Positions 6,137-58,579 of a DNA stretch of 64,000 nt are shown here, one piece after another; position 1 is the stretch's first letter, and every line of letters begins with the position of its first letter. A model generated the notes under the pieces. The model saw nothing but the letters and a program-made list of their open reading frames with translations. It did not search any database and was not told the origin of the DNA. The translations under genes were made by a program, and so were the position numbers. Origin of the DNA: Candidatus Omnitrophota bacterium (GTDB lineage Bacteria > Omnitrophota > Gorgyraeia > 2-01-FULL-45-10); assembly GCA_041650935.1 (NCBI GenBank), contig JBAZKH010000007.1, forward strand, positions 41,471-105,470, written 5' to 3'.

Positions 6137-6212
6137 GCCCGCATAGCTCAATTGGCAGAGCAGGACACTCTTAATGTCAAGGTTCCAAGTTCGATTCTTG
6201 GTGCGGGCACCA
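6137..6212 (+). tRNA. tRNA-Lys (anticodon CTT)
   Basis: Cloverleaf folded by hand: acceptor GCCCGCA/TGCGGGC, D stem GCTC/GAGC, anticodon loop CTCTTAA, T stem CCAAG/CTTGG, encoded CCA. Confidence 0.85.
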
Positions 6213-6248
6213 TGTCAGTTAGACTGTAATGACAAATGTCAAAATCTA

Positions 6249-6290
6249 AATGACAAATCAATCTTTAAATGACCAATATTTAAAGATTTG
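6249..6290 (+). repeat. hairpin element family A/B, copy A (CAAATC stem, 25-nt loop, GATTTG)
   Basis: 36/42 identical to 38256-38297. It is preceded by two more AATGACAAAT copies at 6228-6258. Confidence 0.6.
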
Positions 6291-6310
6291 TTATTGTGAT
6301 TTTACAAAAT

Positions 6311-6385
6311 GCGGCGGTAATTCAGTGGTAGAATGCGACCTTGCCAAGGTCGATGTCGTGGGTTCGAAACCCATCCGCCGCTCCA
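6311..6385 (+). tRNA. tRNA-Gly (anticodon GCC)
   Basis: Acceptor GCGGCGG/CCGCCGC, anticodon stem CGACC/GGTCG, loop TTGCCAA, T loop TTCGAAA, encoded CCA. Confidence 0.85.
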
Positions 6386-33499: not shown

Positions 33500-33669
33500 A
33501 GCTGCCAAAGAAATTTAGTTCCTAACACTTGCCAAAATCAAATTTTGTGGTAAACTTATTCCATAGTGACGTTTTTGTTCTATGGTCAGGCAAAGGCAGC
33601 CCCTCGGCGCGGGACTTAGATATTAAGGTATTCCCTCGACACGGGACTCAAAACAGTAGTGTCTCGGGA

Positions 33670-33736
33670 TGATTTGCAAGACTAAGGTAATGGCAAATCA
33701 CGGGACGATTTGTCAGACTTAGATAACAACAAATCG
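33670..33736 (+). repeat. tandem hairpin leader elements (family C/D) ending in the Shine-Dalgarno sequence
   Basis: TGATTTGC/GCAAATCA and CGATTTGT/ACAAATCG stems. The last 45 nt are near-identical to the rpsT leader. Confidence 0.6.
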
Positions 33737-33745
33737 GAGGTGGGT

Positions 33746-34420
33746 ATGGATTGGTTGACGTTCGTTGTAGTTGATCCTGTGAAGGCGATGTTGATAAAGA
33801 TATGGAGTTATGTTCCTGCCATCGCAGGCGCGATTGTCATCCTAATCGTAGGCTGGCTTATAGCAAAAGTGCTGGAAATGGTGATTGTCAGGGTTCTTAA
33901 AGCCGTTCGCCTGGATATGGCAAGCGATAAGGCGGGTCTTTCGAACATTCTGGCGCAGGGAGAGATAAAGCTGAGTCTCTCGGAGCTGATAGGGGCTGTA
34001 ATATATTGGATCATTATACTTGTAGTGATTGCGACCGCGCTTGGTACGCTCAACCTTACCATTGCCGCGGAGCTCGTCGCACGGCTCATAGAATATGTGC
34101 CTAATATACTGGGCGCGATATTTATCCTGATAGTCGGAACTTTTGTGGCGGATTTTGTAGCTACGATAGTGCGGACAACGGCAGGAAACGCCGGAATAAA
34201 GAAGGCAAGTCTTCTTGCCAAGGCGACGAAGATCGTCCTTGTGATCTTTGCGGCAGTTATCGCGATCGAACAATTGAAGATAGCTTCGACGCTGATAGTC
34301 CTGGCTGTTAATATAATTCTTATATCTTTAGGTATCGGCATAGCCCTGGCGTTCGGTCTTGGCTGTAAAGATATAGCCGGTAAATTTGTTCAGGATCTCA
34401 TCAACGATCTGAAGAAATAG
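33746..34420 (+). CDS. membrane protein with internally duplicated conserved-TM-helix repeats (MscS-N/CmpX-like)
   Basis: Start reassigned to the ATG 6 nt after GGAGGT (the ORF-track start 33710 is a TTG inside the hairpin). Two homologous halves. Confidence 0.55.
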   Translation: MDWLTFVVVDPVKAMLIKIWSYVPAIAGAIVILIVGWLIAKVLEMVIVRVLKAVRLDMASDKAGLSNILAQGEIKLSLSELIGAVIYWIIILVVIATALGTLNLTIAAELVARLIEYVPNILGAIFILIVGTFVADFVATIVRTTAGNAGIKKASLLAKATKIVLVIFAAVIAIEQLKIASTLIVLAVNIILISLGIGIALAFGLGCKDIAGKFVQDLINDLKK

Positions 34421-46043: not shown

Positions 46044-46117
46044 TGGTGGAGCTGACGAGAATCGAACTCGTGATTACACAATGCCATTGTGTCGTGATCC
46101 CTCTTCACTACAGCCCC
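46044..46117 (-). tRNA. tRNA-Ala (anticodon GGC)
   Basis: The reverse complement folds as acceptor GGGGCTG/CAGCTCC, D stem GTGA/TCAC, anticodon stem ACACA/TGTGT, loop ATGGCAT, T loop TTCGATT, CCA. Confidence 0.8.
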
Positions 46118-46146
46118 ATATTCAAATAGTATTATAGCACAAAAAC

Positions 46147-46233
46147 TGGTGCCGAGGGAGGGAGTTGAACCCTCATATCCGTGAGGAAATCGGTTTTTGA
46201 GACCGACGCGTATGCCAGTTCCGCCACCTCGGC
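46147..46233 (-). tRNA. tRNA-Leu (anticodon CAA), type II with a long variable arm
   Basis: The reverse complement folds as acceptor GCCGAGG/CCTCGGC, anticodon stem TCGGT/ACCGA, loop CTCAAAA, long variable arm, T stem GAGGG/CCCTC, CCA. Confidence 0.8.
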
Positions 46234-56594: not shown

Positions 56595-56843
56595 AAGCTT
56601 CTTCATCAGGCGGGATATCTTCCTTGCCGCTGTATTCTTTTTGATCACGTCTTTTGAGGCGGCCTTATCCAATTTAGAAACGAGCAGGGATAATGCCTTC
56701 TTTGCCTCGTCGGTTTTGTTTGCCTTCACAAGGCTCTCGAAATCTTTAATGGATGTTCTCAGGTCCGATTTAGTCGAGATGTTCTTGAAGTGGCGTTTCT
56801 TGGCTTTTCGCAGTTCTTTATACGCAGTTCTTTCTCTTGGCAA
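56571..56843 (-). CDS. rpsT: 30S ribosomal protein S20
   Basis: KELRKAKKRH...NTAARKISRL S20 pattern. TTG start 7 nt after GGAGGT. Confidence 0.85.
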   Translation of the reverse strand: MPRERTAYKELRKAKKRHFKNISTKSDLRTSIKDFESLVKANKTDEAKKALSLLVSKLDKAASKDVIKKNTAARKISRLMKKLLPRGPKA

Positions 56844-56853
56844 TTGCTACCTC

Positions 56854-56958
56854 CGATTTGTTATTATCTAAGTCTGACAAATCGTCCCTAGGTGCACTAA
56901 CTTGAGTCCGGCACCGTGGGACTACCGTAATTTGTACTTAAGTCTGACAAATCGTCCC
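56854..56958 (-). repeat. hairpin leader elements (family C/D); the proximal copy abuts the rpsT Shine-Dalgarno sequence
   Basis: Minus-strand read GGGACGATTTGTCAGACTTAGATAATAACAAATCGGAGGT. A second unit lies 70 bp upstream with nested covarying inner stems. Confidence 0.6.
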
Positions 56959-57046
56959 GAGCTGCCGCTGTCTAACTCCAGCAGCGAGGGACTACTGTAA
57001 AGACAAAATTATATCACGTGAGTAATTTGAGGTCAACATTTTTTAT

Positions 57047-58579
57047 ATGAGTAAAAAGAGCCTGATACGATTTACGGGAATAATAGGTTTCGCCACGGCG
57101 ACGAGCAGGGCGCTGGGGTTCGTAAGAGATATCGTCATAGCGCGGTTCTTCGGTACGGCCATCTATGCCCAGGCGTTCGTTATAGCTTTCAGGATACCGA
57201 ACCTGCTGCGCGATCTTGTCGGCGAAGGCGCGACGAATTCGGCTTTTGTGCCTGTCCTGACGGACGAATTGACCAGGAAAGGCAGGAAAGATTTCTTTAA
57301 GCTTGCCCAGGTCATATTAAACATAATGTTCTGGGTCTTGTGTGTACTTACGCTTTTAGGCATACTCCTCTCGCCGCTGATCGTGCGGCTGATAGCCCCG
57401 GGCTTCGCCGCCGATATCGAAAAATTCGAAGTGACTGTGCGGCTCACAAGGATACTATTTCCGTTCCTGATCCTGGTCGGTTTATGGGCATACGCCATGG
57501 GGGTGCTGAATTCGCTCGGGATATTTGCCGCGCCCGCCTTCGGCCCCAGTGTCATGAACCTTTCCATGATAATATGCGCTTCGGCCTTCGGCGAAAACGT
57601 ATTCGGCCTTGCGGCAGGTGTCCTGGCAGGAGGATTTTTACAACTCGCAATACAGATAAAACCGCTGGTGCGCAGCGGCTGGCGGGCGCGCCTGACTAGG
57701 GAATTTACTCATCCGCAGGCGCGGCGGGTGGGGATGCTCCTCGTTCCCCGCGCGCTGGGCGCTTGCGTATATCAGGTCAACGTCTTTATCAGCACTATCC
57801 TTGCGTCGCTGTCGAGCATCGTCGGTGAAGGCGCCGTAGCCGCTTTATATTACGCCAACCGTGTATGGCAATTGCCGCTGGCGATATTCGGAATCGCTTT
57901 GGCGCAGGCCGCCCTTCCCATGATGTCCAGGCACGTCGCATTGAACGAAAAGGAAGATCTTAAAAAGATGCTGGCATTTTCTCTCAAGGTGCTCTTCTTC
58001 ATCCTCGTTCCTGCCACCGTCGGGCTCATGGTTCTGTGCGAGCCCATAACTCAGGTGCTTTTCCAGCGCGGCGCGTTTACGGCTTATTCGACGCGGATAA
58101 CGGCAACGGCGCTCTTTTATTATGCCGTAGGATTGATTGCCTGCGGCGGTATCAAGATCCTCGTAAATACGTTCTATTCGATGCACGATACCATGACTCC
58201 GGTGAAGACGGCGCTGGCTGCTTTAGTATTGAATATCGTGCTCAACGTGGTCCTGATGTTTCCCATGAAGCTTGGCGGGCTGGCCCTCGCCACTTCGGTA
58301 GCGGCATTTTTGAATTTCCTGATCTTATATGTGATCCTTGCAAGGCGTATAGGCGATTTTGGCACGGCATCGATCGCCGATACTTTCTTCAGGGTTTTGC
58401 TCGCAAGCCTCGTTATGGGCACGGTCTTAAGGCTTCTTATTGTGCGTATGCCTGATTTCACGTTCGTTTCGATAGGGATACTTATAGCCGCGGGGATAAC
58501 GGTCTTCCTGGGCTCAAGCTATCTTTTTGGGGTAAACGAGCTGAAGGAGTTCTTTGCGTGGATCTCAAGGCGAAAGTAA
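57047..58579 (+). CDS. murJ: lipid II flippase MurJ
   Basis: MurJ/MviN N-terminal signature RALGFVRD...FGT..YAQAF. Confidence 0.9.
   Translation: MSKKSLIRFTGIIGFATATSRALGFVRDIVIARFFGTAIYAQAFVIAFRIPNLLRDLVGEGATNSAFVPVLTDELTRKGRKDFFKLAQVILNIMFWVLCVLTLLGILLSPLIVRLIAPGFAADIEKFEVTVRLTRILFPFLILVGLWAYAMGVLNSLGIFAAPAFGPSVMNLSMIICASAFGENVFGLAAGVLAGGFLQLAIQIKPLVRSGWRARLTREFTHPQARRVGMLLVPRALGACVYQVNVFISTILASLSSIVGEGAVAALYYANRVWQLPLAIFGIALAQAALPMMSRHVALNEKEDLKKMLAFSLKVLFFILVPATVGLMVLCEPITQVLFQRGAFTAYSTRITATALFYYAVGLIACGGIKILVNTFYSMHDTMTPVKTALAALVLNIVLNVVLMFPMKLGGLALATSVAAFLNFLILYVILARRIGDFGTASIADTFFRVLLASLVMGTVLRLLIVRMPDFTFVSIGILIAAGITVFLGSSYLFGVNELKEFFAWISRRK

What the first reader, a model, noticed from the sequence alone, without database searches (positions are those of the whole stretch)
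33670..33746. Near-identical 45-nt hairpin plus Shine-Dalgarno leader in front of rpsT and an unrelated membrane-protein gene, with compensatory stem changes
On the strand of each downstream gene the sequence is GGGACGATTTGTCAGACTTAGATAA(C/T)AACAAATCGGAGGT. That is an 8-bp perfect stem CGATTTGT/ACAAATCG with a 15-nt loop CAGACTTAGATAAYA whose 3' arm runs directly into GGAGG. The membrane-protein ATG (33746) follows 6 nt after the Shine-Dalgarno sequence, and the rpsT TTG (56843) follows 7 nt after it. A second copy 36 nt upstream at 33670-33700 has stem TGATTTGC/GCAAATCA. This differs at two paired positions that covary (T:A becomes C:G at the inner pair, C:G becomes T:A at the outer pair), and the loop is a related AAGACTAAGGTAATG. 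The rpsT locus has another degenerate unit 70 bp upstream (56938-56958) whose inner hairpins also covary (GGTGC/GCACC versus GCTGC/GCAGC, with loops sharing CTAACT). Covariation plus placement against the ribosome-binding site argues for a functional RNA structure such as a shared translational control element, possibly linked to S20 autoregulation or a regulon. A DNA site bound by a dimeric factor is the alternative. Sharing a leader between a ribosomal protein and a membrane protein is unusual.
Basis: seen in the sequence. Interest (0 to 1): 0.75.

Follow-up and report, generated by a model that had tools for sequence, protein, structure and literature searches.

The report
Portable two-hairpin mRNA leader repeat
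The shared hairpin is real but is only half of a roughly 75-nt two-hairpin repeat that some Omnitrophota bacteria carry in the mRNA leaders of unrelated genes, always ending at the ribosome-binding site; no RNA-family database lists it and its function is unknown.

Summary
The 40-nt sequence occurs exactly twice (33702-33741 +, 56849-56888 -); no shuffle gave a match. It is the 3' half of a roughly 75-nt module.

- **Hairpin A:** GUCCC, a UC/UC internal loop, a variable 5-6 bp stem, a roughly 15-nt loop, then GGGAC. It is stable (-17 to -21 kcal/mol).
- **Hairpin B:** GAUUUGY, a 15-nt loop, RCAAAUC. It is weak (-5 to -7 kcal/mol) and runs directly into GGAGG.
- **Copies in the window:** the rpsT leader has two A+B units. 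The membrane-gene leader has a truncated A, one A+B unit and a further B.

The source is a Candidatus Omnitrophota genome assembled from a metagenome. I found 14 units in 11 leaders, all sense-oriented, with a start codon 9-17 nt after B. Downstream genes are unrelated (rpsT, SecD, PpiD-like, CysK-like, PheA-like and others).

The A inner stem shows many compensatory changes (96% of cells paired, 0 of 500 shuffles as good). There is no Rfam match.

The module is missing upstream of rpsT in six of seven related species, so it is not an S20 operator.

Best reading: a dispersed, modular leader RNA element, probably bound by an unknown factor that acts on translation or mRNA fate. A REP-like selfish repeat remains a serious rival.

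The parts
33529..33556 (+). Predicted promoter of the membrane-protein gene (TTGCCA-16-TAAACT with an upstream TG)
   Evidence: The same promoter sequence is conserved in orthologous loci L034, L035, L040 and L044, so the module lies in the 5' UTR.
33600..33626 (+). Truncated older hairpin A: 5' arm CCCCTCGGCGC plus loop GGGACTTAGATATTAA, with its 3' inner arm lost
   Evidence: Sequence. It matches the single hairpin A of the orthologous leader in L034 (CCCTCGGTGC gggagttagatgaca). This part is inference from comparing the two sequences.
33632..33670 (+). Hairpin A: (T)CCC-TC-GACAC, loop GGGACTCAAAACAGTA, GTGTC-TC-GGGAT
   Evidence: Covariance model hit covering 33629-33707 at 73.7 bits.
33671..33699 (+). 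Hairpin B, distal copy: GATTTGC, loop AAGACTAAGGTAATG, GCAAATC
   Evidence: It carries the one compensatory double change seen in the B stem (T-A to C-G).
33702..33706 (+). Orphan GGGAC, the remaining 3' outer arm of the truncated older hairpin A
   Evidence: by comparison with L034. Inference.
33707..33735 (+). Hairpin B, proximal copy: GATTTGT, loop CAGACTTAGATAACA, ACAAATC
   Evidence: Covariance model hit on the B half alone at 28.9 bits. Folds at -5.3 to -6.9 kcal/mol.
33736..33748 (+). Shine-Dalgarno GGAGG (33736-33740), 5-nt spacer and the ATG of the PF05552 membrane-protein gene (33746)
   Evidence: All orthologues start with ATGGATTGG.
57008..57036 (-). Predicted rpsT promoter TTGACC-17-TATAAT (11 of 12 consensus positions, TG before the -10)
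   Evidence: The same promoter is conserved in all rpsT orthologous loci.
56954..56992 (-). Hairpin A of the distal rpsT unit: GTCCC-TC-GCTGC, loop TGGAGTTAGACAGCG, GCAGC-TC-GGGAC
   Evidence: Folds at -21.1 kcal/mol. Covariance model hit covering 56925-56994 at 67.7 bits.
56929..56953 (-). Hairpin B of the distal rpsT unit, with a shortened loop: GATTTGT, CAGACTTAAGT, ACAAATT
56884..56922 (-). Hairpin A of the proximal rpsT unit: GTCCC-AC-GGTGC, loop CGGACTCAAGTTAGT, GCACC-TA-GGGAC
   Evidence: Folds at -18.3 kcal/mol. Covariance model hit covering 56847-56924 at 88.8 bits.
56855..56883 (-). Hairpin B of the proximal rpsT unit: GATTTGT, loop CAGACTTAGATAATA, ACAAATC
56841..56854 (-). Shine-Dalgarno GGAGG (56854-56850), spacer and the TTG start of rpsT (56843)
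   Evidence: The S20 protein is 100% identical to P0001, annotated as 30S ribosomal protein S20 from a Candidatus Omnitrophota metagenome-assembled genome.

Best explanation
This is a lineage-restricted family of roughly 75-nt modular repeats that acts at the RNA level inside mRNA leaders of some Omnitrophota.

**Anatomy.** Each unit is GGUA, then hairpin A, then hairpin B with no spacer, then the Shine-Dalgarno sequence with no spacer.
- Hairpin A is stable. It has an invariant GUCCC/GGGAC outer stem, a conserved UC/UC internal loop and a free-to-vary inner stem.
- Hairpin B is marginally stable and has an invariant AU-rich stem.
- Both hairpins display a similar 15-nt loop, consensus nRGASUNARAUNAYA.

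**Proposed mechanism (inferred, not shown).** A trans-acting factor, most likely a dimeric or two-domain RNA-binding protein, recognises the two similar loops and the invariant helices. Because the 3' arm of B abuts GGAGG, binding would set ribosome access or mRNA fate for the downstream gene. Units spread and multiply by duplication or recombination, which would recruit unrelated genes to the same control.

**Shown here.** The architecture, the base pairing, the sense-strand orientation, the fusion to the Shine-Dalgarno sequence, conservation above synonymous sites, and sporadic gain and loss.

**Inferred.** That it is transcribed (from promoter predictions only), that a factor exists, and which way any effect on expression goes.
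For: **Architecture and pairing.**
- 13 units align with 96.4% of cells paired.
- Three inner pairs of A each carry 4-6 compensatory double changes.
- No shuffle out of 500 matched this, and slid controls pair only 34-50%. RNAalifold gives the same two hairpins.
- At least 10 different inner stems of A occur. One example is GGATAC/GTATCC against GGATGC/GCATCC in otherwise near-identical copies.

**Orientation and position.**
- The scan pattern did not include the 3' arm of B, the Shine-Dalgarno sequence or the gene.
- Even so, all 7 real copies it found have RCAAAYM, then a Shine-Dalgarno sequence, then a start codon 9-17 nt after B, on the gene's strand.
- The two window leaders lie on opposite strands of one GC-skew arm, each following its own gene.

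**Within the 5' UTR.** Promoter-like sites with 9-11 of 12 consensus matches end 11-43 nt upstream of the module in five leaders.

**Conservation above neutral at orthologous loci.**

| Comparison | B plus Shine-Dalgarno identity | Fourfold-site identity in adjacent gene |
|---|---|---|
| window / L034 (membrane gene) | 93% | 65% |
| window / L040 (membrane gene) | 85% | 57% |
| window / L023 (rpsT) | 82% | 48% |

The element identities were counted by eye.

**Orthologous covariation.** At the membrane-gene locus the inner stem of A is GGCGC (5' arm only, truncated older copy) and GACAC/GTGTC in the window. It is GGTGC/GCACC in L034 and CCGCC/GGCGG in L040.

**Similar loops.** A and B loops share a 15-nt consensus. 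At one mismatch or fewer plus a flanking stem, one unrelated site was hit in 271 kb besides module hairpins.

**Specificity of the model.** True copies score 59-95 bits and everything else scores 18.4 bits or less, over 64 kb (filters off) plus 228 kb.

**Stability.** A folds at -17 to -21 kcal/mol and B at only -5 to -7 kcal/mol. That fits a B helix whose formation could be modulated.
Against: - No factor has been identified, and there are no expression data.
- The downstream genes form no coherent functional set.
- The module is absent at orthologous loci in close relatives. Six of seven related species lack it upstream of rpsT, and two of five lack it upstream of the membrane gene. The unit number varies from 0 to 2.5. 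This behaviour is more typical of repeats than of conserved regulators.
- Predicted accessibility of the Shine-Dalgarno sequence varies widely between copies (probability unpaired 0.0-0.82), so no uniform masking mechanism emerges.
- In L004 an upstream ORF reads through the whole module.
- High similarity between copies could reflect recent copying or gene conversion rather than selection. Examples are L013 against L017 (one indel in 69 nt) and the two proximal B copies in the window (39 of 40).
- The sample is small and partly selected by a sequence pattern.
Confidence: 0.45

Rival explanations
1. This is a selfish or domesticated dispersed repeat, REP-like or MITE-like, copied by a transposase or by recombination. 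Under this view its conserved hairpins are recognition features for the mobilising enzyme. Its position next to the Shine-Dalgarno sequence would reflect insertion-site preference or survivorship, with no regulatory role for the host.
For: - Presence and absence differ at orthologous loci among close relatives, and the unit number varies.
- Near-identical 69-nt copies sit before unrelated genes in one metagenome (L013 and L017).
- In the window, one whole unit with the same GGTA...AC boundaries as in the tandem arrays sits inside an older hairpin A.
- A 5' GTAG followed by an imperfect palindrome with a conserved mismatch, present in 7 of 13 aligned units, recalls REP sequences and their Y1 transposases (RAYTs). 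This comparison is from my own knowledge.
- Y1_Tnp genes do exist in related genomes.
Against: - All 11 leaders are sense-oriented and fused to a Shine-Dalgarno sequence.
- Orientation follows the gene, not the replication arm.
- Each copy keeps its own compensated inner stem of A. Decaying insertions would not do that.
- Orthologous copies are more conserved than synonymous sites.
- No terminal inverted repeats or target-site duplications are visible.
- No Y1 transposase is encoded in the window.
- The Y1_Tnp genes seen are in genomes or places without the module, and the one examined (L020) carries different flanking hairpins.
Confidence: 0.25
2. This is a factor-independent cis element. Hairpin A would act as a 5' or intercistronic barrier against ribonucleases, and A plus B as an insulator that presents the Shine-Dalgarno sequence in a constant context. 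That would raise or standardise expression of the downstream gene.
For: - A is very stable and begins roughly 5-20 nt after the predicted transcription start in four promoter-proximal leaders.
- Other copies sit in short gaps after same-strand upstream ORFs (4-37 nt in L014, L016 and L018), where a processed 5' end could be protected.
- The Shine-Dalgarno sequence lies outside both helices.
Against: - A pure barrier does not need invariant stem sequences, a conserved UC/UC internal loop or a shared 15-nt loop consensus.
- Close relatives express the same genes from short leaders without it.
Confidence: 0.17
3. This is a ligand-sensing riboswitch. The two similar hairpins would form one pseudo-symmetric aptamer, as in guanidine-II, and control the adjacent Shine-Dalgarno sequence.
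For: - Two similar hairpins lie directly upstream of a Shine-Dalgarno sequence.
- The nucleotides are strongly conserved.
- Tandem units occur.
Against: - There is no Rfam match.
- The loops are not complementary to each other.
- The downstream gene set is incoherent.
- The distribution at orthologous loci is sporadic.
- No consistent alternative pairing with the Shine-Dalgarno sequence was found.
Confidence: 0.06
4. This is a double-stranded DNA operator, the GATTTGY-N15-RCAAATC palindrome, bound by a dimeric transcription factor. Alternatively it is an S20-specific autoregulatory operator.
For: - The B arms are invariant, and their centres lie 22 bp (about two helical turns) apart.
- rpsT has a TTG start, as does the autoregulated E. 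coli rpsT. This comparison is from my own knowledge.
Against: - The inner stem of A varies in sequence but stays complementary. This needs a folded single strand.
- Some copies lie in short gaps after same-strand upstream ORFs, without a nearby promoter.
- The strand orientation is fixed.
- Six of seven related species lack the module upstream of rpsT, and most copies precede other genes.
Confidence: 0.04

Closest known systems
REP / BIME elements of enterobacteria and pseudomonads, with their Y1 transposases (RAYTs)
   Same: - Short, highly conserved imperfect palindromes in transcribed extragenic DNA.
- Stems kept by compensatory changes.
- A conserved 5' GTAG-like tetranucleotide.
- Clustered in variable numbers.
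- Sporadic at orthologous loci.

The comparison draws on my own knowledge of REP/BIME elements.
   Different: - REPs lie mostly 3' of genes or between convergent genes. They occur in both orientations or as inverted pairs, and have small loops.
- Here every copy is a direct, sense-oriented, two-hairpin unit with 15-nt loops, fused to the Shine-Dalgarno sequence of the downstream gene.
- No RAYT was found nearby.
Pneumococcal BOX elements (boxA, boxB repeated n times, boxC)
   Same: - Modular composite repeats with a variable number of internal modules.
- Predicted to fold when transcribed, and reported to change expression of neighbouring genes (PMC3049150).
   Different: - There is no sequence similarity.
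- BOX elements have terminal inverted repeats and are not locked to the Shine-Dalgarno sequence or to one orientation.
ERIC and Correia elements
   Same: Intergenic repeats that are co-transcribed with genes and affect mRNA processing by RNase E or RNase III (summarised in PMC3049150).
   Different: - Those are longer (about 127-150 bp) single long hairpins or terminal-inverted-repeat elements that insert in either orientation.
- They show no fixed register with a Shine-Dalgarno sequence.
Mycobacterial interspersed repetitive units (MIRU)
   Same: Tandem 40-100 bp units in intercistronic gaps, oriented with the operon. This is from my own knowledge.
   Different: - MIRUs act through small overlapping ORFs and translational coupling.
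- The units here have no constant reading frame, and two of three frames in the loops contain stop codons.
Ribosomal-protein leader operators, including E. coli S20 autoregulation
   Same: A structured 5' leader next to the ribosome-binding site of an rpsT gene with a TTG start.
   Different: It is not conserved with rpsT (present in one of seven related species) and it is shared with many genes that do not encode ribosomal proteins.
Guanidine-II (mini-ykkC) riboswitch
   Same: Two tandem hairpins with similar conserved loops immediately upstream of the Shine-Dalgarno sequence. This is from my own knowledge.
   Different: - Guanidine-II has ACGR tetraloops that kiss each other, and a coherent gene set.
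- Here the loops are 15 nt and not complementary to each other, the genes are unrelated, and there is no Rfam hit.

Membership tests
Any Rfam 15 family | A covariance-model match at the gathering score, or even at E-value 10 or below | tested here: not met
   At the gathering threshold the window gives only 4 tRNAs. E-value-mode scans of 33500-33800 and 56800-57060 give nothing relevant.
S20 (rpsT) autoregulatory leader | The element is conserved upstream of rpsT orthologues | tested here: not met
   A full module is present only in L023/L024. It is absent in L020, L021, L022, L025, L027 and L028-L033, although synteny and the promoter are conserved.
S20 (rpsT) autoregulatory leader | The element is specific to rpsT | tested here: not met
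   The same module lies upstream of PF05552 membrane-protein, PheA-like, PpiD-like, SecD, CysK-like, aldolase-like and other genes.
REP / RAYT system | An imperfect palindrome preceded by a conserved GTAG-like tetranucleotide | tested here: inconclusive
   GTAG precedes TCCC in 7 of 13 units. The others have GAAG, GCAG, GAGAG, GTAT or GATAG. Hairpin A is an imperfect palindrome with a conserved 2x2 mismatch.
REP / RAYT system | An associated Y1 (RAYT) transposase gene in the genome, typically flanked by the REPs | tested here: inconclusive
   tblastn finds none in the 64-kb window. The Y1_Tnp genes in L020, L022, L028 and L035 are in module-free loci, and L020's carries different flanking hairpins. 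The rest of the source genome could not be searched.
REP / RAYT system | Both orientations or inverted pairs (BIME/REPIN), mostly 3' of genes | tested here: not met
   All 14 units are direct and sense-oriented, 5' of a start codon.
MITE | Terminal inverted repeats and target-site duplications | tested here: not met
   The unit ends (GGTAGTCCC... and ...ACAAATC) are not inverted repeats of each other. Comparing filled and empty sites shows no duplication. The empty sites are diverged, so this test is weak.
Integron attC site | R''/L''...L'/R' boxes (RYYYAAC ... GTTRRRY) at the base of the stem, within a cassette array | tested here: not met
   The stem bases are GTCCC/GGGAC and GATTTGY/RCAAATC. 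The context is conserved housekeeping synteny (murJ-rpsT-holA and nrd-membrane gene-radical SAM), not a cassette array.
Intrinsic terminator or attenuator | A GC-rich hairpin followed by a U tract | tested here: not met
   The terminator scans find none in the modules. A is followed by GAUUUGU and then B, and B is followed by GGAGG.
CsrA/RsmA-type target leader | Several GGA motifs exposed in hairpin loops, with one overlapping the Shine-Dalgarno sequence | tested here: inconclusive
   GGA is present in 8 of 13 A loops and 1 of 13 B loops. The invariant GGGAC is base-paired. GGAGG at the Shine-Dalgarno sequence is present.
Structured cis-regulatory RNA motif (generic) | A conserved secondary structure supported by covariation, with fixed orientation 5' of genes | tested here: met
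   covariation; orientation and position.
Structured cis-regulatory RNA motif (generic) | The element is transcribed and affects expression | not testable with these tools
   Only promoter predictions are available. No transcriptome or reporter data exist here.

The most novel reading that the evidence does not exclude
The module is a portable translational operator. It would be a self-propagating roughly 75-nt RNA cassette that lands directly 5' of Shine-Dalgarno sequences. It would thereby place arbitrary genes (ribosomal, secretion, biosynthetic, membrane) under one as yet unknown RNA-binding regulator or ligand, so that a post-transcriptional regulon grows by copying its operator. A related, less likely version is a new ribozyme or processing signal that insulates cistrons.
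Probability: 0.2. Interest if true: 0.85.

Novelty: new variant of a known kind. Interest (0 to 1): 0.6.

Why it matters
Omnitrophota are uncultured, so their gene regulation is known only from sequence. This would be a structured RNA motif specific to that phylum that Rfam does not list.

It also combines two things usually seen separately. It shows the dynamics of a dispersed repeat: gain, loss and tandem expansion. It also shows the fixed register and covariation of a cis-regulatory leader.

If a factor binds it, this would show how a post-transcriptional regulon can grow by copying an operator. It could also supply a compact natural leader part, ending in a ribosome-binding site, for synthetic biology. 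If it is a REP-like element, it would be an unusual one that targets the 5' side of Shine-Dalgarno sequences.

Tried and rejected
**Rfam.** Gathering-threshold and permissive scans gave no family.

**Collection scans with GGGAYGATTTGYMAGACTWA.**
- Genome contigs gave 10 hits, 2 of them real, both in Omnitrophota metagenome-assembled genomes.
- Metagenome contigs gave 9 hits, 5 of them real.
- Viral contigs gave 2 chance hits.
- The other hits lack the 3' arm and are chance matches, with about 17 expected in the genome collection (my estimate).

**S20 operator.** Rejected by the rpsT orthologues.

**Further hidden copies.** The covariance models, with filters off on the window, and a loop-plus-stem scan found nothing above noise. 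Weak relic-like hits are L025 13669-13729 (17.5 bits) and L021 9945-9995 (14.8 bits).

**Masking of the Shine-Dalgarno sequence.**
- Partition-function accessibility is inconsistent between copies.
- The 9-nt pairing between A's 3' arm and the Shine-Dalgarno region in L034 is not shared by other copies.

**Loop-loop kissing.** No conserved complementarity was seen by eye.

**Y1 transposase link.** None is encoded in the window.

**Strand test using G-U against A-C mismatches.** The counts are two each, so the test is uninformative.

**Literature.** Searches by sequence and by topic found nothing on this element.

**One failed look-up.** P0011 returned contigs without DNA.

**Taxonomy of the metagenome copies.**
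- Exact cluster look-ups returned no names.
- SecD homologues place L014 in Omnitrophota.
- L013, L016, L017 and L018 remain unassigned. L018's PpiD-like protein is 41% identical to that of L007.
Full report
**1. The observation**

The 40-nt sequence GGGACGATTTGTCAGACTTAGATAAYAACAAATCGGAGGT occurs exactly twice in the window, at 33702-33741 (+) and 56849-56888 (-). None of 100 shuffles gave a match even with three mismatches allowed. The hairpin pattern GATTTGY-N(11-19)-RCAAATC occurs three times against 0.01 expected. The first 20 nt recur a third time at 56939-56958 (-).

GGAGG 33736-40 precedes the ATG at 33746, and GGAGG 56854-50 precedes the TTG at 56843. The second copy at 33671-33699 with its covarying arm is also as described.

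**2. The real unit is larger**

Reading both leaders on the sense strand shows a composite unit of about 75 nt.

- **Hairpin A** is GUCCC, a 2x2 internal loop (UC/UC, in one case AC/UA), a 5-6 bp inner stem, a loop of about 15 nt, the return of the stem, then GGGAY.
- **Hairpin B** follows A with no spacer. It is GAUUUGY, a 15-nt loop, then RCAAAUC. It is in turn followed with no spacer by GGAGG.

The unit content of the two window leaders is as follows.

| Leader | Units |
|---|---|
| rpsT | Two tandem A+B units (56992-56929 and 56922-56855), behind an 11-of-12 sigma-70-type promoter at 57036-57008 |
| Membrane gene | A truncated older A (33600-33626), a complete A+B unit (33632-33699), an orphan GGGAC (33702-06) and a second B (33707-35), behind a TTGCCA-16-TAAACT promoter |

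A folds at -17 to -21 kcal/mol. B folds at only -5 to -7 kcal/mol and drops out of the centroid structure of a whole unit. The whole rpsT leader folds with a z-score of -3.8, the membrane leader with -1.4.

**3. Source and relatives**

The S20 protein and the membrane protein are each 100% identical to proteins of a Candidatus Omnitrophota metagenome-assembled genome, on a contig of 112,548 bp. No Rfam 15 family matches either leader, even at E-value 10 or below.

I scanned the public collections with a pattern covering only the 3' end of A and the 5' half of B.

- The genome collection gave two real copies, both in named Omnitrophota genomes: L004 and L007.
- The metagenome collection gave five real copies: L013, L014, L016, L017 and L018.
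- The remaining hits lack the 3' arm and are chance matches.
- L014 belongs to Omnitrophota, judged by its SecD/SecF protein.

All seven real copies have the full arrangement of A, B, Shine-Dalgarno sequence and start codon. None of those downstream features was part of the search pattern.

The start codon lies 9-17 nt after B. The downstream genes are unrelated to one another:

- a PheA-like chorismate mutase / prephenate dehydratase
- a PpiD-like chaperone
- a 60-residue protein
- SecD/SecF
- a CysK-like enzyme
- a membrane protein
- a DeoC/LacD-type aldolase

These names are my reading of the translations. Only SecD was checked, by homologues.

**4. Structure support**

An alignment of 13 units (A2) gives 96.4% standard pairs. 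Five pairs show changes on both sides, in 17 cells. No shuffle out of 500 reached the observed values. Controls with the 3' partner slid by 1-3 columns pair only 34-50%.

The covariation is concentrated in three inner pairs of A, with 4-6 double changes each and at least ten different stems. The outer stem of A and the B stem are almost invariant. RNAalifold predicts the same two hairpins without guidance.

The A and B loops resemble each other, with consensus nRGASTNARATNAYA. Examples are GGAGTGAGATAACA in A and CAGACTTAGATAACA in B. At one mismatch or fewer plus a flanking stem, one unrelated site (L004, near 5723) was found in 271 kb besides module hairpins.

Covariance models R1 and R2 separate true copies (59-95 bits) cleanly from everything else (18.4 bits or less). 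This holds in the window with filters off and in 228 kb of related DNA. The window holds three full units plus one B-only unit and nothing more.

**5. Orthologous loci**

*rpsT.* Seven related species keep the murJ/rpsT/holA arrangement and the same TTGACC-17-TATAAT promoter.

- Only L023/L024 has a module. It is a single A+B unit with a new A stem, GTTGC/GCAAC. Its S20 is 89% identical to the window's, and it comes from genome STD1_81, the same genome as L007.
- L020, L021 and L022 keep only a B-like 3' half (…AACA-RCAAATC followed by the Shine-Dalgarno sequence).
- L025, L027 and L028 have short unrelated leaders.

*Membrane gene.* Synteny and the promoter are conserved in all five related species examined.

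| Locus | Protein identity to window | Module |
|---|---|---|
| L034 (STD1_81) | 92% | Single A+B unit, 94.8 bits |
| L040 (GCA_028699255) | 84% | Variant A (CCGCC/GGCGG, no internal loop) plus B, 59 bits |
| L035-39 | 88% | Absent |
| L044/45 | 76% | Absent |

These results come, with bit scores.

Presence tracks the genome. STD1_81 has the module at three loci and GCA_028699255 has weak versions at two. The species of L028/L035 (one WOOD18 contig) has none at either locus.

Where the module is orthologous, B plus the Shine-Dalgarno sequence is 93%, 85% and 82% identical. Fourfold-degenerate sites in the adjacent genes are 65%, 57% and 48% identical (for the coding values; element identities counted by eye).

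The window's membrane-gene leader looks like a whole unit, with the same GGTA…AC boundaries as in the rpsT tandem, copied into an older A hairpin. This last point is inference.

**6. What this means**

*Shown.* This is a folded single-stranded element. It is strictly sense-oriented and lies inside predicted 5' UTRs or in short gaps after same-strand upstream ORFs. It is fused to the Shine-Dalgarno sequence. It is conserved above the synonymous-site level and is gained, lost and multiplied on short evolutionary time scales.

The two window copies lie on opposite strands of one GC-skew arm, each following its gene. This argues against an orientation bias tied to replication.

*Inferred.* The invariant helices, the conserved UC/UC loop and the two similar 15-nt loops point to sequence-specific recognition by a trans-acting factor. 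The zero-nucleotide junction between a weak B helix and GGAGG suggests that the output is ribosome access or mRNA fate.

I put this at about 0.45. The rivals are:

- a REP-like or MITE-like repeat with no host role (about 0.25)
- a factor-independent stabiliser or insulator (about 0.17)
- a riboswitch (about 0.06)
- a duplex DNA operator or S20 operator (about 0.04)

The S20 idea fails on conservation and specificity. The DNA-operator idea fails because the inner stem of A varies in sequence yet stays complementary.

**7. Limits**

- The sample is small: 14 units in 11 leaders from at least 8 genomes or contigs. Seven leaders were found by a sequence pattern, which inflates the apparent invariance of the 5' half of B.
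- Transcription is inferred from promoter consensus only.
- Whole genomes could not be scanned, so copy number per genome and any co-occurring gene are unknown.
- Predicted accessibility of the Shine-Dalgarno sequence varies between copies.
- In L004 an upstream ORF reads through the module.
- No literature on the element was found.
- Background on BOX, ERIC, BIME and Correia repeats is taken from PMC3049150. Statements about REP/RAYT, MIRU, guanidine-II and E. coli S20 rest on my own knowledge.

**8. Verdict**

The finding is real and more extensive than reported. It is best filed as a new, Omnitrophota-restricted, modular leader repeat with RNA-level structure. That makes it a new variant of the known kind [quoted passage not shown]. 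Interest is 0.6.

Noticed in passing
L020 about 770-830 and 1360-1400, flanking the Y1_Tnp gene at 825-1391: A Y1 (IS200/RAYT-type) transposase gene is flanked by long perfect hairpins that share the loop AGATTAAAGTAATCT, with 19-bp and 11-bp stems. This looks like a REP/RAYT-type pair. It is unrelated in sequence to the A-B module.
   Followed up: partly
L004 about 4440-4210 (- strand): The upstream ScpB-like ORF has no stop codon before the module. It reads through both hairpins and ends about 30 nt inside the pheA-like gene. This copy therefore lies inside a translated tail.
   Followed up: partly
L020 9985, L022 9980 and L007 6920 (+): ACAAATC followed within 0-4 nt by GGAG occurs without any hairpin in two rpsT leaders and upstream of the gene divergent from ppiD. 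The 3' arm of B may therefore be an older part of the leader next to the Shine-Dalgarno sequence, or a relic of lost modules.
   Followed up: partly
window 33562-33586: A small hairpin, CCATAGTGACGTTTTTGTTCTATGG, lies directly after the predicted membrane-gene promoter. It is not conserved in the orthologous leaders L034 and L040.
   Followed up: no
window 56923-56930 and module loops: GGUAGUCC (5' flank of A) and UUAGAUA (loops) also occur, in the opposite order, in the universal 16S rRNA 790-loop / 806R primer region. This is recalled from memory. About one shared 8-mer is expected by chance. No 16S gene was available to test it.
   Followed up: no
L025 13669-13729 (+): A weak model hit (17.5 bits): TCCCTCGGCTTCGCTCGGGATGATTAAT…. 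It looks like a miniature or decayed hairpin A followed by the start of B. It lies on the strand opposite to the flanking PilZ and TPR genes.
   Followed up: partly
L021 12361 and 12739 (- strand): A near-identical repeat of about 45 nt (ccaggaACAGGaaaaaccgaaatcgcaaCCTGTgaagatgtggaa…) occurs twice inside the TPR/YfiO-like gene, which indicates an internal coding repeat.
   Followed up: no
window 6137-6382 (+) and 46047-46233 (-): There are two pairs of adjacent tRNA genes (Rfam RF00005, 58-67 bits).
   Followed up: no
L022 5695-6366, L025 5463-6218: The release-factor gene (PCRF/RF-1 domains) is called much shorter here (223-251 residues) than in sister contigs (339-379). This would fit the programmed +1 frameshift of prfB or an assembly difference.
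   Followed up: no
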